A stretch of 64,000 bases of DNA from Acidobacteriota bacterium. GTDB taxonomy: Bacteria; Acidobacteriota; Thermoanaerobaculia; UBA5066; Gp7-AA6. Of this stretch, positions 9,273-24,416 are shown one piece after another (the first letter of the stretch is position 1; each line of letters starts with the position of its first letter). Position numbers and translations under genes: made by a program. The DNA is taken from NCBI GenBank assembly GCA_039933215.1, contig JBDTOO010000018.1, forward strand, positions 305-64,304, in the 5' to 3' direction. The notes under the pieces were generated by a model. It worked only from the letters and a program-made list of their open reading frames with translations, did no database searches and was not told where the DNA came from.

Positions 9273-10289
9273 ATGAAATTCCGGATGCCCGTCCCGGTGC
9301 CGCTTCTCTCTCTGCTCGCCGCCTCTTCCATGCTGGCGCAGGCGGCTCCGCCCGCCGGTCCGCTCCCGGCCGCGACGCCCGTTCCGGCGGCAGCCGCCGT
9401 GCCCGCCGCGGCGCCAACGCCTCCCGCGGACATCGACGTACGCATGATCCGTTTCAAGATCTCCGCCGGAGATCTTGCGAGCGCGGAATCGATCCTCGAG
9501 TCCCACCGCGCCGCGAAGGGGGAGGACGACGATTACCTCATGGGGCTCGCGTGGGTCGCGCGCGGCGCCGCGCTGACGGGAGACTGGGCCGCCGCGAAGA
9601 CATGGGCCGACCGAGCGCGTCAGGCGGCCGAATCGAAGCTGAAGACCGCCATCGACTACGAGTCGCAGCGCGAGGCGCTGTATCTGCTCGGGACCTCGAT
9701 CGAGGTCCGGGCGCAGGCGCTCGTCGCGGCGGGGAAGACCGCGGACGCGATCCGATTCCTCGAGGAGAGCGCGAAGGCACAGGACGCGGCGCAGAGGCCC
9801 TACAATCTCCGTGCGCGGATCTGGAAGCGCCGCAACATGATTGAGCTCTCCGGAAAGCCCGCTCCCGCGATCCGCGCAGAGGACCGCGTGGGCGGGGAGG
9901 CCCCTTCCATCGAGTCGCTTCGCGGCAAGCCGGTGGTCCTGTATTTCTGGTGGGAGGCGTGCGGTGACTGCCGGATGCAGGCGGACGCGTTCCGCAGGAC
10001 CGTGGAGAAGTACGCACCGAGGGGCGTGGCGTTCCTCGCTCCGACGCGCTACTACCACGTGGGCGGCCACGCGGAGGAGAAGGGCGAAATCGAGAAAATG
10101 TGGAGCGAGGTCTATAAGCTCACGGGCTCCGTCCCCGTTGTGGTCTCGGACGAGGCCATGCTGCGCTACGGAGTCTCGGCGACCCCGACGTTCGTTTTCG
10201 TGAACCGGAAGGGGATCGTCACGCGCTACGCGCCGACGCGCATGACGGAAGAGCGTCTCGCCGCGGCGATCGAAGAGATCCTGAAGTGA
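9273..10289 (+). CDS. Secreted TlpA/redoxin-like thiol:disulfide oxidoreductase with an N-terminal helical (TPR-like) domain
   Basis: AAGGAG lies 6 nt upstream of ATG 9273. Signal peptide MKFRMPVPVPLLSLLAASSMLAQA. Thioredoxin-fold region GKPVVLYFWWEACGDCRMQ (CxxC) ...YGVSATPTFVFVNRKG. Confidence 0.85.
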   Translation: MKFRMPVPVPLLSLLAASSMLAQAAPPAGPLPAATPVPAAAAVPAAAPTPPADIDVRMIRFKISAGDLASAESILESHRAAKGEDDDYLMGLAWVARGAALTGDWAAAKTWADRARQAAESKLKTAIDYESQREALYLLGTSIEVRAQALVAAGKTADAIRFLEESAKAQDAAQRPYNLRARIWKRRNMIELSGKPAPAIRAEDRVGGEAPSIESLRGKPVVLYFWWEACGDCRMQADAFRRTVEKYAPRGVAFLAPTRYYHVGGHAEEKGEIEKMWSEVYKLTGSVPVVVSDEAMLRYGVSATPTFVFVNRKGIVTRYAPTRMTEERLAAAIEEILK

Positions 10290-10292
10290 CGA

Positions 10293-10324
10293 CTCGGGGG
10301 GAGGGGTCGCCCCCCTCCCCCGAG
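10293..10324. terminator. GC-rich hairpin between convergent genes (putative bidirectional terminator)
   Basis: CTCGGGGGGAGGGG-TCGC-CCCCCTCCCCCGAG, a 14-nt near-perfect inverted repeat. It has no flanking U-tract, so intrinsic termination is uncertain. Confidence 0.45.
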
Positions 10325-10383
10325 CTCTACGTCGAGCCGCTCCGAATGCGCGATGCCCGTCGACCCCTCGAATCGAATCGAGA

Positions 10384-10554
10384 TCAGTGGGTGATCGTCG
10401 CTTCCTTCAGGTGAGTACCGGTCGCGCACGTCTGAATCAGCACGGGGCGGGCCTTGCCCCCCTTCACGCTGCGAGCCTGCCTGGCCGACAGCGTCTTGGG
10501 TTTGAGAGCTCCGGCACCCGCGCGTTTCTTCCCTTTGGCCGTTTTCTTGTTCAT
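10384..10554 (-). CDS. GG-leader precursor peptide P1 (56 aa)
   Basis: MNKKTAKGKKRAGAGALKPKTLSARQARSVKGG|KARPVLIQTCATGTHLKEATITH. AGGAGG lies 5 nt upstream of ATG 10554. The leader is shared with P2-P6. The track shows it only as the tail of the artefactual 277-aa ORF 10384..11217. Confidence 0.8.
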   Translation of the reverse strand: MNKKTAKGKKRAGAGALKPKTLSARQARSVKGGKARPVLIQTCATGTHLKEATITH

Positions 10555-10616
10555 GCCGCCTCCTGCGCTTGTGATTGTTCCGCCGCGATCAGCGCGACGG
10601 TCGGCCGCCCTTCCGT

Positions 10617-10793
10617 TCAAGGCTTGATGTCGTACTTGAAATGGATCCCGGCGTCCAGACTCCCGTCGGTTTTCCCGGGCTTGTATTGGAGCGACGTTTC
10701 CCCCCCTTTGACGTTCCGGGCCTGCTTCGCGCTCAGCGTCTTCGCGCCGAGACTCCGAACCGATTTTTTCGCCTTCGCAGGTTTCTTCTTCAT
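10617..10793 (-). CDS. GG-leader precursor peptide P2 (58 aa)
   Basis: Hand translation: MKKKPAKAKKSVRSLGAKTLSAKQARNVKGG|ETSLQYKPGKTDGSLDAGIHFKYDIKP. GAGGAG lies 6 nt upstream of ATG 10793. Not in the ORF track (below 60 aa). Confidence 0.8.
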   Translation of the reverse strand: MKKKPAKAKKSVRSLGAKTLSAKQARNVKGGETSLQYKPGKTDGSLDAGIHFKYDIKP

Positions 10794-10818
10794 GTCTGGC
10801 TCCTCTGTCGAATTGGAA

Positions 10819-10834
10819 AGCAGCCCGGATGCCA
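10819..10834 (-). promoter_or_regulatory. Sigma-54 (-24/-12) promoter upstream of P2
   Basis: The minus strand reads TGGCAT-CCGGG-CTGCT with GG-N10-GC spacing (consensus TGGCAC-N5-TTGCW). It sits about 25 nt upstream of the P2 ATG. Confidence 0.65.
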
Positions 10835-10979
10835 GTCACCCCACGCGTTGAAGAGGCCTTCCGGGGCGGCTTTGCCCGCGGAGGCCGCGGCGGGTGGCCG
10901 GGGATGGATCGAACGTGAGACACGGATGGTGTCGATATGGGGCCGTCTAAGAACCACACCCCCCCTGCCATTTCTTTCA

Positions 10980-11159
10980 TCAGGTGATCAGTATGTCGTT
11001 CATCTTGACGATGAGGTACTCGTGCTGCTCCTTCCCGGCCTTGCGGCCCCCTTTGACATCCCGGGCGTTTCTGGCGCTCAGCGTTTTCGCGGGCAGATCC
11101 TTGACCCTCTTGTTCGCCTTCCCCTTCGCCTTCGCCTTTCCCGTTTTCTGCTTGTTCAT
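10980..11159 (-). CDS. GG-leader precursor peptide P3 (59 aa)
   Basis: Hand translation: MNKQKTGKAKAKGKANKRVKDLPAKTLSARNARDVKGG|RKAGKEQHEYLIVKMNDILIT. AGGAGG lies 5 nt upstream of ATG 11159. Not in the ORF track. Confidence 0.8.
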   Translation of the reverse strand: MNKQKTGKAKAKGKANKRVKDLPAKTLSARNARDVKGGRKAGKEQHEYLIVKMNDILIT

Positions 11160-11182
11160 CCTGCCTCCTGGTCCGCTTTGGA

Positions 11183-11198
11183 AGCAGACCCGGTGCCA
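11183..11198 (-). promoter_or_regulatory. Sigma-54 (-24/-12) promoter upstream of P3
   Basis: The minus strand reads TGGCAC-CGGGT-CTGCT with correct GG-N10-GC spacing, about 23 nt upstream of the P3 ATG. Confidence 0.7.
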
Positions 11199-11299
11199 CC
11201 CGCTCGGATTCCCTCACCAGGGCCGTTCGCGCCGTTATCTCGCGATTCCGCCGCGAGCGGGCTTCCGGCGTTGGACCGATTCTGAGACAATGGTCGGCG

Positions 11300-11305
11300 T
11301 ATAAT
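11300..11305 (+). promoter_or_regulatory. Candidate sigma-70 -10 box (TATAAT) upstream of the exporter operon
   Basis: A perfect TATAAT lies 28 nt upstream of TTG 11334. No convincing -35 at 17-nt spacing (TTGGAC lies 23 nt away). Confidence 0.3.
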
Positions 11306-11333
11306 CGGTCACTTCTCGGTCGCCACCCACGCT

Positions 11334-12401
11334 TTGGATGCGATGAAATCTCTTCTCGACCTTCCCGCGTTCGCCGTCGGCGAAGAAACGTACAGTTGGC
11401 AGGACGTCGTCCTGGCAGCGATGGTCCGCGGGGACTGGGCGGCTCTGGAAGTGCAGACCCGGGAAGGACTTGCGCTCGCGCACTGGGCAGAGAATGCCGG
11501 CGAAAGGCCGTCCGACGAGGACCTGGACGCCGTGGCGCAGGAGTTCCGCTACGAGCGGGACCTGATAGCCGCCGAGGAAATGGAAGTCTGGCTCGCTCGC
11601 TTCGGGCTCACCGTCGATGATTGGATGGGGGCCATCGAGCGCGCCATGCTTCGGTCGGCGCATCCCGAGGAGGTGGGCGACGCTCTCGCGCGATTCTCCG
11701 TCGACGAATCCGAGGTCTCGCGGAGCGCGCCGGCGGACGCCGTCTGTTCCGGCGCTCTCCCGCGGTTCGCGATGGCTCTCGCCGCCCGCGCCGCGATCGC
11801 CAACCGGTCCGGCGCCGAACCGCCGCGCGCCTTCGAGGAAGGGCGAAGCGCGGAACGGACCGGGCGGATGAGCTCCATCGATGCCGCGTTCGCGCGGCTC
11901 GGCTTCCCGCCCGCGAACGATGGGCGCGTCGCCGCTCTCGCCCGGCTCGAGGAGGGGTTCGAGGAGTTCTCCCGCCGTCTCGCGGACCCGTCGGCGATTC
12001 GAGGGCAGATCGAGGCGCATCGGCTCGACTGGATCCTGCTCGACTGGCGGGCGTTGGTCTTCTCCGAGGAGGCGGCCGCGCGCGAAGCCGCTCTCTGCCT
12101 GCGCGAAGACGGCGAGTCCCTCGAAGCCGTGGCGGAGGACGCCCATCTCTCCATCGTCGAGACACGCGCCTACCTCGGCGACGTCGACGCGAGCGCGCGG
12201 CCCGAACTGCTGAGCGCCCGCCCCGGCGATTTCGTTGGACCGCTCCGGATCGAGGACGTTTTCCACGTGCTTCAATTGCGCGGCAAGACCATGCCGTCCG
12301 AGGAGGATCCGGAAGTCCGCAACCGAGCGGAGACGAGCCTGAGGTCGAAGGTCACGGATCAAGAGGTCGCCGCGCGGGTCCGGTGGCACGATCCGGTCTA
12401 G
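11334..12401 (+). CDS. Hypothetical protein with a degenerate parvulin (PpiC)-like C-terminal region; candidate peptide-maturation or chaperone factor
   Basis: 355-aa ORF with good coding character, first gene of the exporter operon. C-terminal ...LLSARPGDFVGPLRIEDVFHVLQLRG... resembles the parvulin G-x-(V/I)-S-x-P-V-x-T-x-x-G-(Y/F)-H-(I/V) segment. Start is TTG 11334 or ATG 11343. Confidence 0.75.
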   Translation: MDAMKSLLDLPAFAVGEETYSWQDVVLAAMVRGDWAALEVQTREGLALAHWAENAGERPSDEDLDAVAQEFRYERDLIAAEEMEVWLARFGLTVDDWMGAIERAMLRSAHPEEVGDALARFSVDESEVSRSAPADAVCSGALPRFAMALAARAAIANRSGAEPPRAFEEGRSAERTGRMSSIDAAFARLGFPPANDGRVAALARLEEGFEEFSRRLADPSAIRGQIEAHRLDWILLDWRALVFSEEAAAREAALCLREDGESLEAVAEDAHLSIVETRAYLGDVDASARPELLSARPGDFVGPLRIEDVFHVLQLRGKTMPSEEDPEVRNRAETSLRSKVTDQEVAARVRWHDPV

Positions 12402-12732
12402 CAGGCGGCTGACAAAAGGATGCGAGCTTTCGGCCGGGGGCATGTGCTGAGAGAGTCGAAAGTGGAGGGCTGAAATTGGGAGGTCTTCTCGAGAGTTCTC
12501 GGCTGCCGGTCGTATCGCGACCGCCGCAGCCGAAAGCCGGGCGGGGCCGTCTGCGGCTTCGCCGCTCCTCCCCGAAGCGAAGGGGCATCGCCGTTCGTCG
12601 CGGATCCTTACATCCGACACCGCGGCGCTCGCCTCCCGCCCACCGAAGGCAGGCCCCCGGCAGTCGGGTACGCCGGCTACCGCCGGCGTTGACCCGCCCC
12701 ACACCGTTCTTCGGCAGCCTGATAGGGAAATC

Positions 12733-15700
12733 ATGAACGAGCGGGAGCTTCTCGACGAACTGCCGATCCTGCGGCTGCTGCCGGCAGAGGCGCGCTCTCT
12801 CGTCGTGGGCAGCTTCATCCCGGTGTCGTTTGCTTTCGGAGACACGATCGTCCGGGAGGGCGATCCGGCCGACGCCTTCTACGTGCTGGCCGCCGGCCGG
12901 GCGCGGATCGTCAAAAAGGGCGACGGCGGGGGAGAGATCCCGTTGAACAGCCTGCGTGCCGGCGACAGCTTCGGGGAGATGGGCCTGCTCGACCATTCGA
13001 CCCGGACCGCGTCGGTCCGCGCGTCGAGCGACGTTCGCGCCTGGCGCCTGGACAAGTCCGTCTTCCAGGCGCTGATCGCACAGAGCCCCGAGATCCGCCA
13101 GTACTTCGAGCTGCAGGTCCGCCACCGCCAGCTTTCGAATTTCTTCCGGGACTTCACGCCGTTCACGCGGCTTCCGCCGCCGGGCATGGCCCTGCTTCTC
13201 GGCAATCTCGAGAGCGTTCCGTTCGAGCCCGGCTCGGTCGTCGTGCGGCAGGGAGCCGAGCCCGGACCGATGTACTTCGTCGAATCCGGGCATCTTCGCG
13301 TCTTCACCGAGGACCCGGAGGGGCGACGGACGTACGTCGCCTACCTGCGCAAGGGGGACTTCTTCGGCGAGCTCTCCGTCTTCCGGGGATCCCGCCGTAC
13401 GGCGTCCGTGGAGGCGGTATCTGCCTGCCGGCTGCTCGCCCTGCACGCGGAGACTCTGCGCACGCTTCTCGATCGCTTCCCGGAGTTCCGATCTCAGATC
13501 GAGGAGCGCATCGCGCAGTACGACTACAAGGAGGCCGCGCGGGTCCCTCTCGACTTCGCCGAAGAGATCCTGCCCGCCGAGGCGTCGGCGCAGGAACAGG
13601 TCGGGTCGGACCAGGTCGAGCAAGGGGAAGAGGAAACGCGGGATCGCGCCGGGGAGCCCGGTGGGGCGTTCGAAGAGGAGGGACTCTTCGTCAAGAAGCC
13701 CGGACGCATCCGGCGCTTTCCGTTCGTCCGCCAGATCGACGAAGTGGACTGTGGGGCCGCCGCGCTCGCGATGGTATGCCGGCATTTCGGGCGAGCCGTG
13801 AGCCTCGCGCGCATCCGGCAACTCGTGCATACCTCGCTCGACGGCACGAGCCTGCGGGGAATCTGCGGCGCGGCCACGGAGCTCGGGCTCGCCGCGCGGT
13901 CCGTCAAGGCTTCCTCGCGGAATCTGGACGAGATGCCGCTTCCCGCGATCCTGCATTGGGAAGGGAACCACTGGGTGGTCCTTTACGACGTGACGGAGAC
14001 CCACTGCCGCGTCGCGGATTCCGCGATCGGGCTGCGGCGGTTCTCCCGCGCCGAATTCGAGAAGCGGTGGACGGGCTACGCCGCGCTGTTCGACTACACG
14101 AGCGAATTCGAGAACGCTCCCGTCGCCGTCTCGAACCTGGCCTGGCTGCGCCCCTTCTTCCGGCCCTTTACGAAGATCCTGCTCCAGGCCCTCGGCCTCT
14201 CGATCGTCGTCGCGGCTCTGCAGATGGTCCTGCCTGTCTTCACGCAGGTGATCGTCGACCGGGTGCTCGTGGAAAGGGACGTGTCGCTTCTGAACCTCCT
14301 CATGCTCGGCATGGGCGTCGTCATCGTCTTCCTGGTGCTGTCACTCGCCGTGCAGCGTTATCTGCTCAGCTTCGTGGCGGTGCGCGTCGACGCTTCAACG
14401 CTCGACTACCTGACGCGCAAGATGCTGGGCCTCCCCATGAGCTACTTCACGACCCGGCGCACCGGCGACATCCAGCGGCGTCTCGAAGGGATTCGCCAGG
14501 TCCGGGAGTTCCTCGTCCAGAGCGGCGTGGCCGGGGTCACCGCCGCGACGCAGCTCGCGGCGAGCCTCCTCCTGATGCTTCTCTACAGCCGGACTCTCAC
14601 CCTGGTGTTCCTCGCGACGGCTCCCGTCTACGGGTTGCTGATGTTCTATTCGTCGCGATGGCTCCGGCCGATCTTCGACGTCGTCGAGGATTCCTTCGGC
14701 AAGTACCACTCGTACCAGATCGATGCGATCAAGGGGATCGAGACCGTCAAGGCCATGGGCGCCGAGGGTTCATTCCGCAATCTGATGCTCGGGCAGTTCC
14801 TGAGCGTCGCCCGCCGCCTCTTCCGCGCGGACTTCACCGTGATGGGATACCGAGGCGCGGTCCAGACGGTCACTCTGCTGACGACGGCGCTCTTTCTCGG
14901 TATCGGAGCGCGTCAGGTGATGGGCGGGGCGCTCACGATCGGCGGTCTGGTGGCCTTCAACGCGCTGGTGGCTCTCGCGAACGCCCCGATCCTGACCCTG
15001 CTGACGATCTGGGACAACTGGCAACACTCCGCCGTTCTCCTGAACCGCTTGAACGACGTCTTCGAGCAGGAGCCCGAGCAAGGGGCCGACCGCTCCCGCC
15101 TCGTACCGGTGCGGAGCCTGGAGGGACGGATCGAGCTCCACGACCTCGGCTTCTCATACGGGCCGGAGGCCCCCGAGATCCTGAAGGGCATCACGTTCGA
15201 CGTCGAGCCGGGCAAGCGGGTGGCGATCGTCGGCCGCAGCGGCTCGGGTAAGACGACGCTCGTGAAGTGCCTGGCGGGTCTGCTCGAGCCGACGGAAGGC
15301 GCGATTCGCTACGACGGCGTGGATCTCAAGACTCTCAACTATCGCGACCTCAGGCGCCAGGTCGGATTCGTTCTGCAGGACAACTTTCTCTTTTCCGACA
15401 CGATCGCCCGCAACATCGCCTTTGGCGAGGACGAGCCGGACATGGACCGCGTGCTCTGGGCTTCCCGCGTGGCGAACGCGCACGAGTTCGTCGAGCGGCT
15501 TCCCCTCGGGTACGACACGAAAGTGGGTGAGAGCGGGATCGCCGTATCCGGCGGGCAGAAGCAGCGGATCGCGATCGCCCGGTCCGTCTACGCCAAACCG
15601 CCGGTGTTGATTTTCGACGAGGCGACGAGCTCGCTCGACACCGAATCGGAGCGCGCGGTGCAGGAGAATCTCGCCCAGTTGCTGAAGGGAAGGACGTCCT

Positions 15701-15858
15701 TCGTGATCGCGCACCGGTTGAGCACGATCGTCGACTCGGACTGGATCCTCGTCCTGGAGAAGGGGCGCCTCGTCGAGCAGGGCACCCACGAGCAGCTCCT
15801 CGACCGCCGCGGCCTCTACTATTACCTCTCGAGCCAGCAGATCGGCCTCTCCACATGA
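12733..15858 (+). CDS. Peptidase-C39 ABC exporter (PCAT) with two N-terminal cyclic-nucleotide-binding domains
   Basis: Two CAP_ED-like domains (..FGDTIVREGDPADAFYVLAAGRARIV..GDSFGEMGLL..RTASVRA.. and ..PGSVVVRQGAEPGPMYFVESGHLRV..GDFFGELSVF..RTASVEA..). C39 domain with catalytic Cys (QIDEVDCGAAALAMV) and His (WEGNHWVVLYDV). Six-TM ABC domain. Walker A GRSGSGKTT, signature VSGGQKQR, Walker B VLIFDEATS. Confidence 0.93.
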   Translation: MNERELLDELPILRLLPAEARSLVVGSFIPVSFAFGDTIVREGDPADAFYVLAAGRARIVKKGDGGGEIPLNSLRAGDSFGEMGLLDHSTRTASVRASSDVRAWRLDKSVFQALIAQSPEIRQYFELQVRHRQLSNFFRDFTPFTRLPPPGMALLLGNLESVPFEPGSVVVRQGAEPGPMYFVESGHLRVFTEDPEGRRTYVAYLRKGDFFGELSVFRGSRRTASVEAVSACRLLALHAETLRTLLDRFPEFRSQIEERIAQYDYKEAARVPLDFAEEILPAEASAQEQVGSDQVEQGEEETRDRAGEPGGAFEEEGLFVKKPGRIRRFPFVRQIDEVDCGAAALAMVCRHFGRAVSLARIRQLVHTSLDGTSLRGICGAATELGLAARSVKASSRNLDEMPLPAILHWEGNHWVVLYDVTETHCRVADSAIGLRRFSRAEFEKRWTGYAALFDYTSEFENAPVAVSNLAWLRPFFRPFTKILLQALGLSIVVAALQMVLPVFTQVIVDRVLVERDVSLLNLLMLGMGVVIVFLVLSLAVQRYLLSFVAVRVDASTLDYLTRKMLGLPMSYFTTRRTGDIQRRLEGIRQVREFLVQSGVAGVTAATQLAASLLLMLLYSRTLTLVFLATAPVYGLLMFYSSRWLRPIFDVVEDSFGKYHSYQIDAIKGIETVKAMGAEGSFRNLMLGQFLSVARRLFRADFTVMGYRGAVQTVTLLTTALFLGIGARQVMGGALTIGGLVAFNALVALANAPILTLLTIWDNWQHSAVLLNRLNDVFEQEPEQGADRSRLVPVRSLEGRIELHDLGFSYGPEAPEILKGITFDVEPGKRVAIVGRSGSGKTTLVKCLAGLLEPTEGAIRYDGVDLKTLNYRDLRRQVGFVLQDNFLFSDTIARNIAFGEDEPDMDRVLWASRVANAHEFVERLPLGYDTKVGESGIAVSGGQKQRIAIARSVYAKPPVLIFDEATSSLDTESERAVQENLAQLLKGRTSFVIAHRLSTIVDSDWILVLEKGRLVEQGTHEQLLDRRGLYYYLSSQQIGLST

Positions 15859-17084
15859 ACGATTCCTCACCCGCCGCGGCGCCCGGCGAGGCCCCTTACC
15901 TGGACGTCGAACCGCCGGCATGGGCCGCGCGGTCGCTCGCGACGGTCCTGATCTCGCTGTTCGCGGTCCTCGCGATCGCCGCTCTGGCGGTCCACGTGCC
16001 GGAGACCATATCGGCTCAGTTCGTGATCGTGCCCGTCCGGGGCACCGACCCGGTGCGCGCGTTCCGGGACGGTATCGTCACCGAGGCGCGCGTTCGCGAC
16101 ACGCAGACCGTCCGGGCGGGAGAGACGCTGTTCGTCATCACCTCACCGGCCATCGGCGATCGTGCGGCGGAGTCGGCGGGTCTGCAGGCGCAGCTCGCCG
16201 GCGCCGGAGAGCGATCCGGCAACGTGCGGACCCGGTACGAGAACGAGCAGCGGGCGCGAGACGAAGAAGAGTCGCGCCTCCGGATCCGCCTCGCGAGCCT
16301 CGAGAAGACGATCCAGATGAACACGCAGCAGCTCTCGATCGCGGCGGAGCTGGCGGAGCGGCAGAAAAAGGCGTTCGACGAGGGGATCTCGAGCTGGTCG
16401 GATCTCGCCCGCGTCCGGCTGGAAATCAATCGGCTGCAGATCGAGGCGCAGCAGGCGCAGGCGGAACGGGACGAGATCCGGCGTGCGGTCGCGAAGTCGG
16501 CCCACGAGAATCTCGCCCGCCAGTCGGAGTTCCGCGAATCCGAGCGCTCCGCGGCGGAGGATCTCGGAAAGGCCCGCGTTCGCACGACCATGCTCGAGAA
16601 AGAGCTCGCACAGACGGGCAATCAGCTCACGGCGGCCGCTCCCTGCGCCGGCAGCGTGGTGAAGACCAACATCCGCGGCGTCGGCGCGGTGGTCCGCGAG
16701 GGCGACGTCCTCGCGGAAGTCGCCTGCCGGGGGGAAAGGCTCGAGGCGGAGCTCACCATTCCGCAGGACGGGATGGCGCTCCTGCGGCCGGGCCAGGACG
16801 TCAAGCTCCTCTACGACGCGTTCCCTTATCAGCGCTACGGCGTGCGGCTCGCGAGGGTTCGCTGGGTGAGCCCGGCCGGGACGGGCGAGCCCGGAAAGGC
16901 GTCCTTCCGGGCGCTCGCCGACCTGAAGGAAACCGACGTGCCGGTCCGGGGTCAGAGGAGGCCGGTCGAGTCCGGGATGGGCGGCCGGGCGCGCATCATC
17001 GTGGGCCGGCGGTCTCTCGTGTCCTACGTCTTCGAGCCGTTGCGCCAGTTGAAAGAGAGCCTGGCTCCGGTGCCCTCGAAATGA
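15855..17084 (+). CDS. HlyD-family periplasmic adaptor (membrane fusion protein)
   Basis: The start overlaps the exporter stop (ATGA). One N-terminal TM helix, a long coiled-coil (..LRIRLASLEKTIQMNTQQLSIAAELAERQKKAFDEG..EINRLQIEAQQAQAERDEI..) and a C-terminal beta-barrel segment. Confidence 0.9.
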   Translation: MNDSSPAAAPGEAPYLDVEPPAWAARSLATVLISLFAVLAIAALAVHVPETISAQFVIVPVRGTDPVRAFRDGIVTEARVRDTQTVRAGETLFVITSPAIGDRAAESAGLQAQLAGAGERSGNVRTRYENEQRARDEEESRLRIRLASLEKTIQMNTQQLSIAAELAERQKKAFDEGISSWSDLARVRLEINRLQIEAQQAQAERDEIRRAVAKSAHENLARQSEFRESERSAAEDLGKARVRTTMLEKELAQTGNQLTAAAPCAGSVVKTNIRGVGAVVREGDVLAEVACRGERLEAELTIPQDGMALLRPGQDVKLLYDAFPYQRYGVRLARVRWVSPAGTGEPGKASFRALADLKETDVPVRGQRRPVESGMGGRARIIVGRRSLVSYVFEPLRQLKESLAPVPSK

Positions 17085-17103
17085 GCCGCCGGGCGGAGGG
17101 CCG

Positions 17104-18093
17104 ATGACGCGCTCTCAGGACGCTTTGTCCCTGACCCTCGACGACTACCACGGCCGCGATCCCGCGATGCAGCGGTGCCTCGAGCAGGCGCGGCTCGCCG
17201 CGCGGACCGATCTTCCGATCCTGATCCTCGGAGAATCCGGGACCGGAAAGACCCTGCTCGCGCGCGCCGTCCACAACTCGTCTCCCCGGCGGGACGGGCC
17301 GTTCGTTTCCTTCAACGCCGCGGCCCTTTCGGACACCCTTCTCGATTCTCAGCTCTTCGGTCACGAGCGAGGCGCCTTCACCGGCGCGCAGAATCGCGTC
17401 AAGGGGAAGTTCGAGCTGGCGAACTCCGGTTCGCTCTTCATCGACGAGATCGCCGACATGAGCGCCTCGGGCCAGGGCAAGATCCTTCGCGCCGTCGAGT
17501 ACGGCGAGTTCGAGCGGCTGGGCTCGGAAACGATCCAGGTGTCCGACGTCCGCCTGCTGTCGGCGACGCACTTTCCGATGGGAGTGTTCACGGAGTCCGA
17601 GCGATTCCGGCGGGACCTGTTCTTCCGGATCAGCGGTTGGACGATCACGCTTCCGCCCCTGCGGGAGCGGCGAAAGGACCTCCCGCTGCTGCTCGCGTCC
17701 GAGATCGCGCGCGCGAGCCGGGAGCAGAAAAAGCCGATCGTGGGACTCGAGCGGGATGCCGTCGACCGCGTCCTCGCTCACGCCTGGCCGGGTAACCTGA
17801 GGGAGCTCTCCCGCGTGGTGGACGTGGCGGTCGCGTCGTGCGAGGCCGGAGTCGTGACCGCGGACGCGCTCTACCTCCAGTCCTTCCCCGACCCGGACGG
17901 TCGCCCCGCGTCTCCCGTCTCCCCGGCGTCAACCGGCGCGGAGACCCTCAGCCTCGCGGCGGCCGAACGCCGCCACATCGGAAGCGTGCTCGCCCGGCTG
18001 GCAGGAAACAAGCGGGCGGCCGCGAAAGCGCTCGGAATCTCCCGGTCGACGCTCGACCGCAAGTTAAACGACGCCGCGAAGGACGCCCGGTAA
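17104..18093 (+). CDS. Sigma-54-dependent transcriptional activator (AAA+ enhancer-binding protein plus Fis-type HTH) lacking an N-terminal sensory domain
   Basis: Walker A ILGESGTGKTLLA, the sigma-54 contact loop FGHERGAFTGA, Walker B LFIDEIADM, WPGNLRELSRVV, and C-terminal HTH NKRAAAKALGISRSTLDRKL. The AAA+ domain begins within about 25 residues of the N-terminus. Confidence 0.9.
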   Translation: MTRSQDALSLTLDDYHGRDPAMQRCLEQARLAARTDLPILILGESGTGKTLLARAVHNSSPRRDGPFVSFNAAALSDTLLDSQLFGHERGAFTGAQNRVKGKFELANSGSLFIDEIADMSASGQGKILRAVEYGEFERLGSETIQVSDVRLLSATHFPMGVFTESERFRRDLFFRISGWTITLPPLRERRKDLPLLLASEIARASREQKKPIVGLERDAVDRVLAHAWPGNLRELSRVVDVAVASCEAGVVTADALYLQSFPDPDGRPASPVSPASTGAETLSLAAAERRHIGSVLARLAGNKRAAAKALGISRSTLDRKLNDAAKDAR

Positions 18094-18100
18094 CCGCCGG

Positions 18101-18283
18101 TCAGTAACCGCGACGCTTCGAATCGAGCGACTCTCCCTTGATGTCCCCGAGCTTCGCGAAGACGTCGACGGCGCCGCCTTTCACCCGCTTCGCCTGATCG
18201 GCCTTCAGCCGCTTCGCAGGCAGGTTCGAAACGCTCTTCTTCGCGGCTTTGCCGCTCTTGCTGGATCCACGCCTGGTCGCCAT
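18101..18283 (-). CDS. GG-leader precursor peptide P4 (60 aa)
   Basis: MATRRGSSKSGKAAKKSVSNLPAKRLKADQAKRVKGG|AVDVFAKLGDIKGESLDSKRRGY. GAGGAGAGGAAA lies upstream of ATG 18283. The track ORF 18101..18310 starts 9 codons earlier at a less likely ATG. Confidence 0.8.
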   Translation of the reverse strand: MATRRGSSKSGKAAKKSVSNLPAKRLKADQAKRVKGGAVDVFAKLGDIKGESLDSKRRGY

Positions 18284-18339
18284 ACGATTTCCTCTCCTCT
18301 TTCTCTCCATCGGAGCTTTGTCGCGAGCTTCGACGGTCG

Positions 18340-18510
18340 TCAGATGTCCATCGTGTCCGGATGCTTCGGGTCGAGCGATTCTCCCTTGATGTTCCCGATC
18401 CTGCCGCCTTTGATCCGTTTCGCCTGATCCCCCTTCAACGACTTCGGGGGAAGGCTCTTCGCCCGCTTGCCCGGCGAACCGGCCGCCTTCCTTCCTCGAT
18501 CGCTCGGCAT
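18340..18510 (-). CDS. GG-leader precursor peptide P5 (56 aa)
   Basis: MPSDRGRKAAGSPGKRAKSLPPKSLKGDQAKRIKGG|RIGNIKGESLDPKHPDTMDI. GGAG lies 6 nt upstream of ATG 18510. In the track it is only the tail of the artefactual ORF 18340..18804. Confidence 0.78.
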   Translation of the reverse strand: MPSDRGRKAAGSPGKRAKSLPPKSLKGDQAKRIKGGRIGNIKGESLDPKHPDTMDI

Positions 18511-18537
18511 GGATGCTCCATTGGATGGAACTCGGGT

Positions 18538-18553
18538 AGCAAGTCTGCAGCCA
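18538..18553 (-). promoter_or_regulatory. Sigma-54 (-24/-12) promoter upstream of P5-P4
   Basis: The minus strand reads TGGCTG-CAGAC-TTGCT with GG-N10-GC spacing and a perfect TTGC -12 element, about 27 nt upstream of the P5 ATG. Confidence 0.7.
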
Positions 18554-18635
18554 GATCGATTCGGGGGGGCGAGAACCCTCGTGGGGGCCCGGTGTGCCGG
18601 GCGATTCGTGCGAAAAAGCCCGCCACCGGTGCGCT

Positions 18636-18652
18636 CCGCCGCGGAGGCGGCG
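18636..18652. promoter_or_regulatory. Candidate shared enhancer (UAS) palindrome between the divergent sigma-54 promoters
   Basis: CGCCGC-GGAG-GCGGCG is a 6-4-6 inverted repeat almost exactly midway between the -24 elements at 18553 and 18728. A related CCGCGG-AGG-CCGCGG lies at 10876..10890 upstream of the P2 promoter. GC palindromes are frequent in this genome, so support is weak. Confidence 0.25.
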
Positions 18653-18726
18653 AGAGGCCGCCCGGGGGCCAGGAGAGGGGACCCCGAAGGCTCATGTCTC
18701 AGAATGGAACACGCGAGGTCCCGGAA

Positions 18727-18742
18727 CGGTACCGTGCCTGCG
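18727..18742 (+). promoter_or_regulatory. Candidate sigma-54 promoter upstream of P7-P6
   Basis: CGGTAC-CGTGC-CTGCG has correct GG-N10-GC spacing, with one mismatch in each element relative to GGCAC/TTGC. Confidence 0.45.
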
Positions 18743-18821
18743 CCGAAGGCTCTCCGGGGCCGCGCGAAGTCTCTCCGCTCGCGCGAGTTGCGCGAACGCC
18801 TCATCTGGCGGAGAAACTGCT

Positions 18822-19052
18822 ATGGCAGGAAGAAAATGGAAGCGAAGATGGCTCGAGCCGAGACTCGAAAGGCGTGAAACCGAAGTGAAGCGGATCCGCC
18901 GGCGGACCCGCGAGGTCGTCCTCCTGAAGGACCTGGCTCCCCGTCAGGAGATCAAGGGAGGAAGCGGAAAGCGGCTCTTCGGCGAGCGCATCGCTTCGAC
19001 GGAGTCGGAGGCGAAGGCCAGGAGGGTTTCTCGAAAGACGAAGCCCTCCTAG
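18822..19052 (+). CDS. Divergent GG-motif precursor peptide P7 (76 aa from ATG 18822, or 55 aa from GTG 18885)
   Basis: ...(V/M)KRIRRRTREVVLLKDLAPRQEIKGG|SGKRLFGERIASTESEAKARRVSRKTKPS. It has a basic N-terminus and a KDL(P)A..IKGG motif like P3-P5, but the leader is shorter. GGAGAA lies upstream of ATG 18822. It is the C-terminal part of track ORF 18594..19052. Confidence 0.5.
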   Translation: MAGRKWKRRWLEPRLERRETEVKRIRRRTREVVLLKDLAPRQEIKGGSGKRLFGERIASTESEAKARRVSRKTKPS

Positions 19053-19097
19053 TTCGACGAGCAGAGTGGATCGCAACGGAGCGAAAGGAGAGGGACG

Positions 19098-19265
19098 ATG
19101 GCAACCAGGAAGAGTCGGAAGCCCGCGAAGAAGGTCAAGTCGATGAAGGCGAAGAGCCTGAATGCGAAGCAGGCCAGGAGCGTCAAGGGCGGCAAAACGA
19201 CGCTTCAGGACATCAGCTTCGTTCACAGTGTCGATAAGGCGAGCCCGGTCCTCCTTCAGAAATAA
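19098..19265 (+). CDS. GG-leader precursor peptide P6 (55 aa)
   Basis: Hand translation: MATRKSRKPAKKVKSMKAKSLNAKQARSVKGG|KTTLQDISFVHSVDKASPVLLQK. AAGGAG lies 7 nt upstream of ATG 19098. Not in the ORF track. Confidence 0.8.
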   Translation: MATRKSRKPAKKVKSMKAKSLNAKQARSVKGGKTTLQDISFVHSVDKASPVLLQK

Positions 19266-19285
19266 GACGGGCCGATCTCGAAGGG

Positions 19286-20458
19286 TCAGCGTTCGCCGGG
19301 CCTGGAGTCCGCCAGGATGTGGAAGTCCGCCAGTTTTCGGACCAGGTCCTCTTCCACGCGGATTCCCAGCTCGCTTTCGATCGTCTCGAGAGCCTCCCGC
19401 GTGGGCTGCCCCTGGAAATAGGGCAGCACCTGCAGGATCTCCGGCGGGAGATCGAGGGCATCGGCGCCGGTGTAACCGACGATGCGAACGGCCTCCGGAC
19501 TCGCCGAGAGGATCTGGAACGTGCCGGGAGTGAGCCGTTCCGGGAGCTTTTCCGAGAGCAACTCCGCGTGCGCCTGCCGCGTCATGCGCGCCTGCACCGC
19601 GATGTCGGCGCCGCCGATGCGCGCCACGTCCTCCCACGCGAGCGGTCCGACGCGGCGGCCGCACTCCCGATAGAACTCCCGCTCCCGTCCGAGCCACTGT
19701 CCCCAGACCTTCCGCGCGGACGCGGGATCGGGCCGGCCGTCGACGTCCGCGGCGCTCATCGGCAGCTTCGTCCCGGGACGCGGCTTCGGCGGGAAGACGG
19801 ACTCCAGGGCGGCGGCGTCGAGGCCGGACTCGAGAACGCACCAGGTCGAAAGCGCCCACTCGACTTCCTTCAGGAGGTCTCGCAGGCGGTCCCAGAAAGC
19901 CATGCCGACGGCTCCCCGCTCGTACTTGCAGAACCAGGTGGCGCAGATGGCGTTGCGATGCTTCCAGATGCCGCACCGGCCTCCCGCCTCCTCGAGGTAG
20001 TGCGGACACCGCAGCGTCTCGGCGCGCCCGAAGGCCGCGGGCCCTCCGGCGTCGTAGAGCACGCTGAAGCGGGCCGGCGCCTGGACCCCGAGCGGATGGA
20101 CGCCGACTCCCTCGTCCAGGCGTCGCTCGAGCGTCGCCCGGCCCGCGGAGAAGGCGAAGTCGCCGTCCTCGAGGGCGCGGCCCACGAGAAAATTGGGCAC
20201 GGTCGGCACGTAGGTGCAGCACTTGGTCCGCGGGCTGAAGTAATTGCCTTCGTCGGGAGGTGCGCCCGGGGGCGCGCACATCGCGCAGTCGTCGCAGGTC
20301 GCGCGGGTCTCGGCGGGGATCGGACCACGCAGCAGGGCGTCGATCCAGCGGGCGTAGAGGGGAGGCAGGGAGCTGCTCGGATCGAAGGGCTGCACCGTCC
20401 CCCGAGGATAGAGCCGGCGGAGCGGGGCCGCCAGCGGTAAACCTCCGGACGGATACAT
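19286..20458 (-). CDS. Cysteine-cluster protein (YkgJ/CxxCxxCC-like) with a possible C-terminal PqqD/RRE-like peptide-binding region
   Basis: Cys motifs CDDCAMC...KCCTYVP...CPHYLEEAGGRCGIWKHRNAICATWFC. The C-terminal segment LPPEILQVLPYFQGQPTREALETIESELGIRVEEDLVRKLADFHILA resembles PqqD-type RiPP recognition elements. It is convergent with P6. Confidence 0.8.
   Translation of the reverse strand: MYPSGGLPLAAPLRRLYPRGTVQPFDPSSSLPPLYARWIDALLRGPIPAETRATCDDCAMCAPPGAPPDEGNYFSPRTKCCTYVPTVPNFLVGRALEDGDFAFSAGRATLERRLDEGVGVHPLGVQAPARFSVLYDAGGPAAFGRAETLRCPHYLEEAGGRCGIWKHRNAICATWFCKYERGAVGMAFWDRLRDLLKEVEWALSTWCVLESGLDAAALESVFPPKPRPGTKLPMSAADVDGRPDPASARKVWGQWLGREREFYRECGRRVGPLAWEDVARIGGADIAVQARMTRQAHAELLSEKLPERLTPGTFQILSASPEAVRIVGYTGADALDLPPEILQVLPYFQGQPTREALETIESELGIRVEEDLVRKLADFHILADSRPGER

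Positions 20459-21503: not shown

Positions 21504-24416
<2,913 letters not shown>

What the first reader, a model, noticed from the sequence alone, without database searches (positions are those of the whole stretch)
18101..19265. Peptide cluster 2 (P4, P5 divergent from P7, P6): same leader family on both strands around a 311-nt control region
The leaders in this cluster read:
- P4 ...NLPAKRLKADQAKRVKGG
- P5 ...SLPPKSLKGDQAKRIKGG
- P6 ...MKAKSLNAKQARSVKGG

They are clear relatives of the P1-P3 leaders. P4 and P5 also share IKGESLD in their cores.

P7 (KDLAPRQEIKGG) has a shortened leader and a longer basic core, and it is the least certain member.

The two divergent pairs are separated by 18511..18821, which holds one strong and one plausible sigma-54 promoter. 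The cluster abuts the 3' end of the activator gene.
Basis: seen in the sequence. Interest (0 to 1): 0.75.

Follow-up and report, generated by a model that had tools for sequence, protein, structure and literature searches.

The report
Exported peptides made of Hcp fragments
Four small sigma-54-driven genes beside a peptide-cutting exporter encode lysine-rich double-glycine leader peptides, and three of their short payloads are pieces of the type VI secretion tube protein Hcp, a cargo I could not find described in the literature I searched.

Summary
P4, P5 and P6 are real small genes under purifying selection. Each has a lysine-rich leader ending in V/I-K-G-G. Two divergent sigma-54 promoter elements lie in the 311-nt spacer, and both are conserved in a related contig.

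- P4 matches Hcp1 residues 2-18.
- P5 matches residues 8-27.
- P6 matches residues 50-70.
- The three cluster-1 peptides match 64-85, 87-108 and 131-157.

Concatenated, the cores hit Pfam T6SS_HCP at E = 2.6e-15 and P. aeruginosa Hcp1 (PDB 1Y12) at E = 1.7e-12.

The family has 396 representative clusters. All members are short, and none is a full-length Hcp.

P7 is not the weakest member. It belongs to a separate small-protein family found more widely, with the motif VVLLKDLAPRKDVRGG..KRLFGER. It starts at GTG 18885.

The peptides sit in a conserved cassette:
- a PPIase-like protein;
- a C39 peptidase ABC exporter with two cyclic-nucleotide-binding domains;
- HlyD;
- a sigma-54 activator with no sensor domain;
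- a Cys-rich protein whose C-terminus folds like a RiPP leader-recognition element.

Best reading: sigma-54-induced precursors that are cut after GG and exported. What the Hcp-fragment cores do is unknown.

The parts
18101..18283 (-). P4 precursor, 60 aa. The K-rich leader ends in KRVKGG. The core AVDVFAKLGDIKGESLDSKRRGY matches Hcp1 residues 2-18.
   Evidence: Core against Hcp1: score 66, z = 11.9, 0 of 200 shuffles reach it. tblastn of Hcp1 against the window gives 71% identity. Strong ribosome-binding site GAGGAGAGG.
18340..18510 (-). P5 precursor, 56 aa. The leader ends in KRIKGG. The core RIGNIKGESLDPKHPDTMDI matches Hcp1 residues 8-27 and overlaps the P4 tile.
   Evidence: (z = 10.0). 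The core is identical at 18 of 20 residues to its L007 orthologue, with dN/dS 0.11.
18538..18553 (-). Sigma-54 -24/-12 element TGGCTGCAGACTTGCT, positioned to drive P5-P4.
   Evidence: Conserved in L007 and L008.
18696..18735 (.). Candidate activator-binding region: the GTCTCAGAAT box (18696-18705) and the perfect palindrome ACGGTACCGT (18726-18735).
   Evidence: The exact 10-mer occurs only twice in the window. The other copy (11279-11288) is upstream of the cluster-1 promoter. It is conserved in L007 and L008. The function is inferred, not shown.
18806..18821 (+). Sigma-54 -24/-12 element TGGCGGAGAAACTGCT, positioned to drive P7-P6.
   Evidence: Conserved in L007 and L008. It ends 1 nt before ATG 18822, so that ATG would not be in the transcript.
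18885..19052 (+). P7, 55 aa from a GTG start. It belongs to a separate conserved family of small GG-motif proteins (VVLLKDLAPRxxVxGG + xxKRLFGER + a variable basic tail). Its core is not Hcp-like.
   Evidence: Core against Hcp1: z = -0.5.
19098..19265 (+). P6 precursor, 55 aa. The leader ends in ARSVKGG. The core KTTLQDISFVHSVDKASPVLLQK matches Hcp1 residues 50-70.
   Evidence: Pfam T6SS_HCP E = 1.3e-4, 22.7 bits. z = 9.0..
19286..20395 (-). Cys-rich 369-aa protein (390 aa if the upstream ATG is used). It converges on P6. Its C-terminal ~90 aa fold like a RiPP recognition element (RRE).
   Evidence: No Pfam or NCBIfam family at significant E. At least 586 homologues, all unnamed. Conserved in L001, L003, L005, L007 and L012. 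AlphaFold2 model pLDDT 86.6. The isolated C-terminal domain hits only RRE domains, at probability 0.95-1.00.
17104..18093 (+). Sigma-54 enhancer-binding protein: AAA+ domain plus Fis-type HTH, with no receiver or sensor domain.
   Evidence: Pfam Sigma54_activat E = 3.6e-58 and HTH_8. 60-73% identical in related loci.
15855..17084 (+). HlyD-family membrane-fusion (adaptor) protein.
12733..15858 (+). Peptidase-containing ABC exporter: two cNMP-binding domains, a C39 peptidase, the transmembrane domain and the ATPase.
   Evidence: The catalytic motifs DEVDCGAAALAM and NHWVVL are present. The best NCBIfam model, TIGR03796, scores 530.6 bits against a cutoff of 853.3.
11334..12401 (+). Conserved 355-aa protein with a weak parvulin-type PPIase-like C-terminus. 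It is the first gene of the cassette.
   Evidence: Rotamase_2 E = 0.015. 54% identical in L001. 35-38% identical in Gemmatimonadota loci.
10980..11159 (-). Cluster-1 peptide. The core RKAGKEQHEYLIVKMNDILIT matches Hcp1 residues 87-108.
   Evidence: (z = 8.9). A sigma-54 element lies at 11183-11198(-).
10617..10793 (-). Cluster-1 peptide. The core ETSLQYKPGKTDGSLDAGIHFKYDIKP matches Hcp1 residues 131-157.
   Evidence: (z = 5.8). A sigma-54 element lies at 10819-10834(-).
10384..10554 (-). Cluster-1 peptide. The core KARPVLIQTCATGTHLKEATITH matches Hcp1 residues 64-85. It ends at the Hcp position just before where the 10980-11159 core begins.
   Evidence: Pfam T6SS_HCP E = 0.018 for the core alone. 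z = 8.8. The junction ...ATITH|RKAGKE... aligns with ...KLTI RKAGGE... of 1Y12.

Best explanation
Cluster 2 is one of two sigma-54-controlled precursor-peptide gene sets. They belong to a conserved export cassette: PPIase-like protein, cNMP-gated C39 peptidase ABC transporter, HlyD adaptor, a sigma-54 activator with no sensor domain, the peptides, and a Cys-rich protein with an RRE-like domain.

Proposed mechanism:
1. The activator binds the conserved boxes in the 311-nt spacer. It fires the two divergent -24/-12 promoters and produces a P5-P4 transcript and a P7-P6 transcript.
2. P4, P5 and P6 are made as 55-60-aa precursors with a 32-37-aa lysine-rich leader.
3. The leader is probably held by the RRE-like domain of the Cys-rich protein, which may modify the peptide.
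4. The C39 domain cuts the leader after V/I-K-G-G.
5. The 20-23-aa core is exported through the ABC transporter and HlyD.

The cores are fragments of the T6SS tube protein Hcp and are kept under purifying selection. P4 and P5 cover the N-terminal strand and the IKGES loop. P6 covers the third strand and the DKxSP helix start. Together with cluster 1 they tile about two thirds of Hcp.

P7 is a different co-transcribed GG-motif peptide, found in a wider range of loci than the Hcp tiles. I suspect it is a common or regulatory component.

Shown here: the gene structures, the leader family, the Hcp origin of the cores, the conserved promoters, the conserved cassette, an intact peptidase motif and an RRE-like fold.

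Inferred, not shown: transcription from these promoters, cleavage, export, any modification, and the role of the mature peptides. My preferred guess for that role is extracellular competition or interference that uses the likeness to Hcp. A plain microcin-like or signalling role is nearly as likely.
For: Leader family:
- Alignment A2.
- 66 short homologues, E down to 1.7e-20.
- 396 representative clusters, all 41-147 aa among the 150 listed.

Hcp origin:
- P6 against PF05638, E = 1.3e-4.
- Concatenated cores against PF05638, E = 2.6e-15, 57.3 bits.
- Collinear alignment to Hcp1 1Y12, E = 1.7e-12.
- Per-core z-scores of 5-15 against shuffles, mapping to successive Hcp1 segments.
- 66 of 143 further representatives are Hcp-like, including the segments missing from this window.
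- The best tblastn hits of Hcp1 in the 64-kb window are the peptide cores.

Selection: dN/dS 0.10-0.35.

Promoters: 5 matches against 0.42 expected. Four are upstream of peptide genes, and the cluster-2 pair is conserved in L007 and L008.

Exporter: two cNMP-binding domains plus Peptidase_C39, ABC_membrane and ABC_tran, and a HlyD gene. The catalytic Cys and His motifs are present.

Cassette conservation: L001, L003, L005, L009 and L012.

RRE-like domain: the top Foldseek hits are TigE, LynD, TruD and TbiB1 with its leader, at probability 0.95-1.00 and TMq 0.48-0.66.
Against: - There is no experimental evidence for expression, cleavage or export.
- The leader departs from the classic double-glycine consensus. 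It has Ala rather than Leu at -7, the hydrophobic spacing is -4/-12/-17, and it carries an unusual K-rich N-terminal half.
- No NCBIfam or Pfam bacteriocin-leader model hits it.
- No outer-membrane (TolC-type) component and no immunity gene were found among the neighbouring ORFs I scanned.
- The Foldseek E-values for the RRE-like domain are modest (0.026-0.044), and the rest of that protein matches nothing.
- The cores are hydrophilic with near-neutral charge, unlike typical membrane-active bacteriocins.
- No T6SS genes appeared among the window ORFs I scanned.
verifies it only for residues 2-19, 50-112 and 130-149. The Pfam and PDB results do not depend on it.
Confidence: 0.7

Rival explanations
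1. Ordinary class II microcin or bacteriocin precursors. The cores kill competitors by a generic mechanism at the membrane or a receptor, and the Hcp ancestry is a historical accident with no functional meaning.
For: The layout of GG leader, C39 exporter and HlyD is the classic class II microcin architecture (PMC12219008). Many family members in other lineages have cores with no similarity to Hcp.
Against: The cores are hydrophilic, not Gly/Ser-rich or amphipathic-cationic, and some relatives have cores of only 5-12 aa. No immunity gene was seen. The conserved Hcp motifs (IKGES, DKxSP, ATGxH, GIHFKYD) are held under purifying selection across many lineages. That is hard to explain if the likeness to Hcp did not matter.
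Confidence: 0.15
2. Exported signalling peptides (quorum-sensing or differentiation signals). Release would be gated by the cNMP-binding domains of the transporter, as proposed for HetC in Nostoc.
For: HetC is a peptidase ABC exporter with an N-terminal cNMP-binding domain that binds ppGpp, and it is thought to export a signalling peptide (PMC10986499). Related loci carry very short basic cores. P7 is highly conserved, as a signal with a fixed receptor would be.
Against: No receptor kinase or other sensor lies in the cassette. The activator has no sensory domain. Six or seven different cores per genome, with sliding boundaries, is unlike a single cognate signal.
Confidence: 0.1
3. Decayed remnants of an hcp gene (pseudogene fragments). 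The apparent leaders and ORFs would have no function.
For: The cores are pieces of Hcp, and the window has no intact hcp.
Against: - Every fragment carries its own start codon, ribosome-binding site and a homologous 32-37-aa leader.
- The fragments lie on both strands, out of Hcp order, and they overlap.
- dN/dS is 0.10-0.35.
- There are hundreds of conserved relatives, always short.
- The sigma-54 promoters are conserved.
Confidence: 0.01
4. Intracellular regulators. The Hcp-like peptides, or P7, would act inside the producer, for example by titrating the sensor-less sigma-54 activator or an Hcp-binding partner, rather than being exported cargo.
For: The activator lacks a regulatory domain, so it needs a partner acting in trans. 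T6SS clusters are often sigma-54-dependent, and Hcp feedback on the activator VasH has been reported in Vibrio cholerae. That report is from my own recollection and I did not verify it here.
Against: The invariant GG site, the intact C39 peptidase and HlyD in the same cassette all point to cleavage and export.
Confidence: 0.04

Closest known systems
Double-glycine leader peptides exported by C39 peptidase ABC transporters plus a HlyD-type adaptor (class II microcins such as MccV/CvaAB; Gram-positive class II bacteriocins and competence pheromones)
   Same: A small precursor gene. A leader ending in GG with V/I at -4 and L at -12. An adjacent transporter with intact C39 Cys and His motifs. A HlyD adaptor.
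   Different: - The leader is twice the usual length and is lysine-rich.
- The genes sit behind sigma-54-type promoter elements and next to a dedicated activator.
- The transporter has two N-terminal cNMP-binding domains.
- The cores are fragments of a known structural protein (Hcp).
- There are two extra conserved accessory proteins.
- No immunity gene was seen.
HetC of Nostoc PCC 7120 (peptidase ABC exporter with an N-terminal cyclic-nucleotide-binding domain; PMC10986499)
   Same: Both are C39 peptidase ABC exporters with cNMP-binding domains at the N-terminus. This suggests small-molecule gating of peptide export.
   Different: HetC's substrate is unknown. Here there are two cNMP-binding domains and the substrates are evident. 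The organisms are probably Acidobacteriota and Gemmatimonadota rather than cyanobacteria.
NHLP/Nif11 leader-peptide systems (TIGR03796/03797 exporters, TIGR03794 HlyD)
   Same: TIGR03796 is the best NCBIfam match for the transporter. Both have several precursor genes with a conserved long leader, variable cores and a GG cleavage site. In both, part of the precursor derives from a larger protein.
   Different: The transporter scores 530.6 bits against a cutoff of 853.3. The peptides hit no NHLP or Nif11 model. In NHLP/Nif11 it is the leader that derives from a protein. Here it is the core.
Hcp/TssD, the type VI secretion tube protein (PF05638; P. aeruginosa Hcp1, PDB 1Y12)
   Same: The cores share sequence with successive Hcp segments, including its most conserved motifs.
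   Different: Each peptide carries only 15-30 residues of the ~160-residue fold and cannot form the beta-barrel or the hexameric ring. No T6SS genes were found among the window ORFs I scanned. The predicted export route is type I-like, not T6SS.
RRE-dependent RiPP pathways (TbiB1, LynD/TruD, SuiB, CteB, TigE)
   Same: A protein in the cassette has a C-terminal domain with the RRE fold, which binds leader peptides. The system has several precursors with a conserved leader and variable cores.
   Different: The rest of that protein (a Cys-rich, possibly metal-binding domain plus a helical domain) matches no known RiPP enzyme or any solved structure. The cores share no common residue that could be modified. 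No modification has been shown.

Membership tests
Double-glycine leader precursor with a C39 peptidase ABC exporter | Small ORF with an N-terminal leader ending in GG (or GA/GS) | tested here: met
   P4, P5 and P6 end their leaders in VKGG or IKGG at residues 32-37. GG is invariant in 58 aligned family members.
Double-glycine leader precursor with a C39 peptidase ABC exporter | Conserved hydrophobic positions -4, -7, -12 and -15 relative to the cleavage site | tested here: inconclusive
   V/I at -4 and L at -12 are conserved. Position -7 is Ala, and the next hydrophobic residue is at -17, not -15. No bacteriocin-leader HMM matches.
Double-glycine leader precursor with a C39 peptidase ABC exporter | Co-located ABC transporter with a catalytically competent C39 domain | tested here: met
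   Peptidase_C39 E = 9.5e-37. The DCG...L.M cysteine motif and the NHWVVL histidine motif are present.
Double-glycine leader precursor with a C39 peptidase ABC exporter | Membrane-fusion (HlyD) partner | tested here: met
   HlyD_3 E = 9.3e-15. The gene overlaps the transporter's stop codon.
Double-glycine leader precursor with a C39 peptidase ABC exporter | Cleavage after GG and export of the core | not testable with these tools
   Needs biochemistry or mass spectrometry.
Class II microcin / bacteriocin | Dedicated immunity gene and antibacterial activity | tested here: not met
   No candidate immunity gene was recognised among the conserved cassette genes. Activity was not testable.
NHLP/Nif11 systems | Transporter reaches the TIGR03796/03797 cutoff and the precursors match TIGR03793/TIGR03798 | tested here: not met
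   530.6 bits against a cutoff of 853.3. No NCBIfam hit for any peptide.
Hcp/TssD (PF05638) | Sequence similarity to the Hcp profile | tested here: met
   P6 scores 22.7 bits (gathering score 23.5). Concatenated cores score 57.3 bits, E = 2.6e-15. PDB 1Y12 E = 1.7e-12.
Hcp/TssD (PF05638) | A complete ~160-aa domain able to form the hexameric ring | tested here: not met
   Cores are 20-27 aa, each covering 17-27 Hcp residues. No full-length member appears among the 150 listed of 396 representatives.
Hcp/TssD (PF05638) | Encoded with T6SS core genes | tested here: not met
   No T6SS genes among the window ORFs scanned or in related loci. The rest of the genome was not available.
RiPP (leader-guided, RRE-dependent modification) | An RRE domain in a cluster protein | tested here: met
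   The C-terminal 92 aa (pLDDT 80) give top Foldseek hits that are only RRE-containing RiPP proteins, at probability 0.95-1.00 and TMq up to 0.66. E-values are modest (0.026-0.044).
RiPP (leader-guided, RRE-dependent modification) | A recognisable modifying enzyme and a modified core | tested here: inconclusive
   The N-terminal Cys-rich part has only a sub-threshold CxxCxxCC hit (E = 0.027-0.44). It has no structural match. Modification is not testable here.
K-rich leader family (P4/P5/P6 type): does P7 belong? | Profile-level homology of the leader | tested here: not met
   hhalign of the P7 family against the leader family gives probability 1.25%, with 7 aligned columns (VKGG only).

The most novel reading that the evidence does not exclude
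The cassette may be a natural protein-fragment interference system. The cell would export a tiled set of short peptides copied from the beta-strands of a polymerising protein. That protein is Hcp here. In other lineages it may be prepilin-like proteins, but I judged that by eye only.

The peptides would exploit sequence self-complementarity to poison the folding or assembly of the matching protein in competitors, or to act as decoys for whatever recognises it.

Two features fit this idea. Many family members end the Hcp strand with RR or RRR tails. The tiles overlap and their boundaries slide. Both features recall designed aggregation-seeding peptides, in which a strand from the target protein is flanked by arginines. 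That comparison comes from memory and was not tested.
Probability: 0.1. Interest if true: 0.95.

Novelty: new variant of a known kind. Interest (0 to 1): 0.8.

Why it matters
Peptide export through a double-glycine leader and a peptidase ABC transporter is well known. A conserved family whose cargo is a tiled set of fragments of Hcp, one of the most abundant secreted bacterial structural proteins, was not described in the literature I could search.

- It defines a widespread cassette with hundreds of peptide clusters and at least 586 homologues of the accessory Cys-rich protein. The cassette was seen in Acidobacteriota and Gemmatimonadota MAGs. A Methylomirabilota MAG has the peptides, including a P7 homologue, but no exporter within the ~10 kb retrieved, and one Cys-rich-protein homologue is named Rokuibacteriota. 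Two of the cassette's protein families belong to no Pfam or NCBIfam family.
- It offers a testable hypothesis: bacteria may use fragments of a protein as exported agents that act on, or mimic, that protein.
- It provides a clear example of peptide cores arising by dicing an existing gene.
- It links sigma-54 control and cyclic-nucleotide gating to peptide export.

Tried and rejected
**Negative searches**
- Pfam and NCBIfam on single peptides gave only the sub-threshold Hcp hit for P6.
- PADLOC gave only generic domain hits: cNMP-binding, ABC ATPase and RtcR-like AAA+. There is no known defence system here.
- Rfam found nothing in 10200-19500.
- The sigma-70 scan found no promoter in 17900-19500. 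The only terminator-like site lies inside the 3' end of the activator gene.
- The whole Cys-rich protein has no PDB match by fold or by sequence profile.

**Leads that did not hold up**
- P7 as an Hcp tile (strand 5, loop, strand 6): the by-eye resemblance was not supported. The core gives z = -0.5 and has no Pfam hit.
- P7 as a member of the K-rich leader family: rejected by hhalign.
- Cores resembling prepilin/DUF1559 proteins in other family members (e.g. P0339, P0326): Pfam gave nothing, so this stays an untested by-eye lead.
- In-situ fragmentation of a single hcp gene: the tiles are out of Hcp order, on both strands, and overlap, in the window and in L001 and L007. A simple one-gene dicing in place is therefore not visible now.
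- L006 is 99.96% identical to the window, so it was uninformative for conservation.

**Literature**
- Five searches found no description of Hcp-fragment GG peptides.
- One more search found no open paper for the recalled Hcp-VasH feedback.
Full report
**1. Observation**

The four ORFs are present as described:
- P4 at 18101-18283(-), 60 aa.
- P5 at 18340-18510(-), 56 aa.
- P6 at 19098-19265(+), 55 aa.
- P7 in the frame ending at 19052(+).

P4, P5 and P6, together with three peptides on the minus strand at 10384-11159, align into one family. Each has a lysine-rich N-terminus followed by xLxAKQARxVKGG. The window is 69% G+C, where random frames tend to be arginine-rich, so lysine-rich leaders are themselves a sign of coding constraint. 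Each of the six genes has a purine-rich Shine-Dalgarno-like sequence upstream.

**2. Promoters and control region**

The pattern TGGC-N7-YTGCT occurs 5 times in the window against 0.42 expected. None of 100 shuffles reached 5. Four of the five sit just upstream of peptide genes:
- 18538-18553(-), before P5.
- 18806-18821(+), before P7 and P6.
- 10819-10834(-) and 11183-11198(-), in cluster 1.

The spacer aligns with the equivalent intergenic region of a related contig, L007, whose Cys-rich protein is 86% identical. Both promoter elements are conserved there, as are internal blocks.

One block contains GTCTCAGAAT. This exact 10-mer occurs only twice in the window, and the second copy is upstream of the cluster-1 promoter. 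I take it as a candidate activator-binding site. That is an inference.

No sigma-70 promoter and no terminator between the paired genes was found. This fits P5-P4 and P7-P6 being operons.

**3. What the cores are**

P6 alone hits Pfam T6SS_HCP at E = 1.3e-4, with 22.7 bits against a gathering score of 23.5.

When the six cores are concatenated in Hcp order:
- PF05638 is hit at E = 2.6e-15, 57.3 bits.
- P. aeruginosa Hcp1 (PDB 1Y12) is hit at E = 1.7e-12, in a collinear alignment.

In that alignment the end of one core and the start of another (...ATITH | RKAGKE...) match contiguous Hcp1 residues (...KLTI RKAGGE...).

Local alignment of each core to Hcp1 gives these positions:

| Peptide | Hcp1 residues | z-score |
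|---|---|---|
| P4 | 2-18 | 11.9 |
| P5 | 8-27 | 10.0 |
| P6 | 50-70 | 9.0 |
| Cluster 1, 10384-10554 | 64-85 | 8.8 |
| Cluster 1, 10980-11159 | 87-108 | 8.9 |
| Cluster 1, 10617-10793 | 131-157 | 5.8 |

None of 200 shuffles reached the observed score for any of these.

One search confirms it for residues 2-19, 50-112 and 130-149. The Pfam and PDB results do not depend on it.

A tblastn search of Hcp1 against the whole window returns the peptide cores as its best hits and no intact hcp gene.

The IKGESLD shared by P4 and P5 is therefore the conserved N-terminal Hcp motif. The two peptides are overlapping tiles of the same region.

**4. The family elsewhere**

A profile of the six peptides found 66 proteins of 48-103 aa. 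They carry the same leader, and nearly all have an Hcp-fragment core, in recurring classes:
- AADIFAKLGDIKGES(RR)
- RIGNIKGESLDPKHPD
- KxxLQDISFVHxVDKASPVL
- ...VDKSSPVLMQACATGxHMKEATITH
- RKAGKEQHEYLVVKMNDVLIT
- KPQKADGSLDAGIHFKYDLKAQKEG

Some were auto-named "Hcp" by JGI.

An exhaustive HMM search of 1.84 billion representatives found 396 clusters at E <= 1e-3. The 150 best are all 41-147 aa, and none is a leader fused to a full-length Hcp.

Of 143 new representatives, 66 have cores significantly like Hcp1. These include the segments absent from this window: strand 2, residues 97-118 and residues 109-136. Across the family, essentially the whole Hcp sequence is tiled.

Within a class the stop position is fixed, but the GG junction slides along the Hcp sequence.

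Other members have cores that are not Hcp-like. Some of these resemble pieces of prepilin-like proteins by eye, but Pfam did not confirm this.

dN/dS between the window genes and their L007 orthologues is 0.10-0.35 in both leaders and cores. The sample is small, but the result is consistent with purifying selection on both parts.

**5. P7**

P7's core shows no similarity to Hcp (z = -0.5), and its leader is arginine-rich. It is nevertheless conserved.
- An Acidobacteriota MAG (L001) has a homologue downstream of two sigma-54 elements.
- A profile search found 27 proteins with a near-invariant block VVLLKDLAPRKDVRGG followed by xxKRLFGER and a variable basic tail.
- Homologues lie among other GG peptides next to the same exporter in L009. 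In a Methylomirabilota MAG (L010, also L011) they lie among GG peptides with no exporter within 10 kb.

Three observations place the start at GTG 18885:
- The homologues begin at the equivalent position.
- The database gene call is 55 aa.
- ATG 18822 abuts the -12 promoter element.

Profile-profile comparison with the K-rich leader family aligns only VKGG, at 1.25% probability. P7 is therefore a separate family that shares the cleavage motif.

**6. Context**

Between the two peptide clusters lie four genes:
- A 355-aa protein with a weak PPIase-like C-terminus (Rotamase_2 E = 0.015).
- A 1041-aa transporter with two cNMP-binding domains, Peptidase_C39, ABC_membrane and ABC_tran. The catalytic Cys and His motifs are intact.
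- A HlyD adaptor.
- A sigma-54 activator made only of an AAA+ domain and an HTH.

Downstream of P6, and converging on it, is a Cys-rich 369-aa protein with no Pfam or NCBIfam family. It has at least 586 unnamed homologues.

The same gene order recurs in an Acidobacteriota MAG, in Gemmatimonadota MAGs and in metagenomic contigs.

The AlphaFold2 model of the Cys-rich protein is confident (pLDDT 86.6). As a whole it has no match among solved structures. Its C-terminal 92 residues, modelled alone (pLDDT 80), retrieve only RiPP leader-recognition domains as top hits: TigE, LynD, TruD, TbiB1 bound to its leader, and more weakly SuiB, CteB and PbtF. For the top four the probability is 0.95-1.00, TMq up to 0.66 and E = 0.026-0.044.

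The other window ORFs I scanned are housekeeping-type genes, and none is a T6SS gene.

**7. Mechanism**

The most likely mechanism is as follows.
1. The activator fires the divergent sigma-54 promoters.
2. The precursors are bound through their leaders by the RRE-like protein, and may be modified.
3. The C39 domain cuts after GG.
4. The transporter and HlyD export the cores, with the cNMP-binding domains gating export. HetC of Nostoc is the precedent for such gating: it is a peptidase ABC exporter whose cNMP-binding domain binds ppGpp (PMC10986499).

Only the sequence-level parts of this are shown. Transcription, cleavage, export and modification are inferred.

The role of the exported Hcp fragments is unknown. 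The Hcp motifs are maintained under selection across many lineages. I therefore favour a role that uses the likeness to Hcp, such as interference with Hcp assembly or acting as a decoy. A generic microcin-like role or a signalling role cannot be excluded. Pseudogene decay and chance similarity are excluded.

**8. Comparison and novelty**

This works like a double-glycine-leader peptide export system of the class II microcin type (PMC12219008). It passes the tests I could run for that architecture, except for the fine leader consensus and the immunity gene.
- It is not a member of the NHLP/Nif11 systems: the transporter scores below cutoff and no peptide matches.
- It is not an Hcp protein: the peptides are fragments only.
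- It has one RiPP hallmark, the RRE-like domain, but no recognisable modifying enzyme.

Five literature searches found no description of Hcp-fragment GG peptides. I class it as a new variant of a known kind, with an unusual and possibly mechanistically new cargo.

Noticed in passing
Proteins P0339, P0289, P0332, P0326, P0359, P0299, P0325; L012 7347-7523: Some members of the same leader family have cores that look like pieces of prepilin/DUF1559-type proteins. Examples are FTLIE..., VIAIIA...LLPAVQKVRE and ...DGSVR... motifs. If real, a second polymerising surface protein would also be diced into exported peptides. This rests on recalled motifs only, and Pfam gave no hit.
   Followed up: partly
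L003 10588-11510; L004 9660-9960; L005 11649-12375; L009 9639-10343: In Gemmatimonadota MAGs and in one unclassified contig (L009), the same cassette carries GG peptides with a related leader (KVRDLPSKKIDxDKADQIKGG). Their cores are only 5-12 aa, e.g. KQALPRKPGN and RRIDA. One core, KASQPSIHFK, looks like a remnant of the Hcp C-terminal tile.
   Followed up: partly
window 11279-11288(-) and 18696-18705(+): The exact 10-mer GTCTCAGAAT occurs only at these two places in the window, each about 80-140 nt upstream of the sigma-54 elements of a peptide cluster. The copy in the cluster-2 control region is conserved in L007 and L008. It is a candidate activator-binding site.
   Followed up: partly
window 41513-43174(+): This gene encodes an FHA-GAF-adenylate/guanylate cyclase protein. 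A cyclic-nucleotide producer in the same window could supply the ligand for the transporter's two cNMP-binding domains. No link was tested.
   Followed up: no
window 36277-36292(-): This is the fifth match to the sigma-54 pattern (TGGCGCAGCGTCTGCT). It lies antisense inside the RmuC-family gene (35868-36971) and is probably a chance match.
   Followed up: no
L004 2182-2349; L005 4450-4617: A conserved 55-aa ORF (M.K.ST..KSPIKDLPLPA.FEGPAGGSGNS.PA.VS.VMKTKHDTVK.SISNIR) lies between the PPIase-like gene and the transporter in two Gemmatimonadota loci. The equivalent 330-nt gap in the window (12402-12732) has no counterpart.
   Followed up: partly
Many family members, e.g. P0023, P0027, P0066, P0234, and the L001 peptides: Many Hcp-tile cores end in added basic tails (RR, RRR, KR, TR) that are not part of Hcp. 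P4 ends in SKRRGY. The reason is unknown.
   Followed up: no
window 21504-24416(-): A 970-aa protein with PA, M28 peptidase, PDZ and PD40 (WD40-like beta-propeller) repeat domains lies about 1 kb beyond the Cys-rich gene. It is not part of the conserved cassette in the other loci.
   Followed up: no
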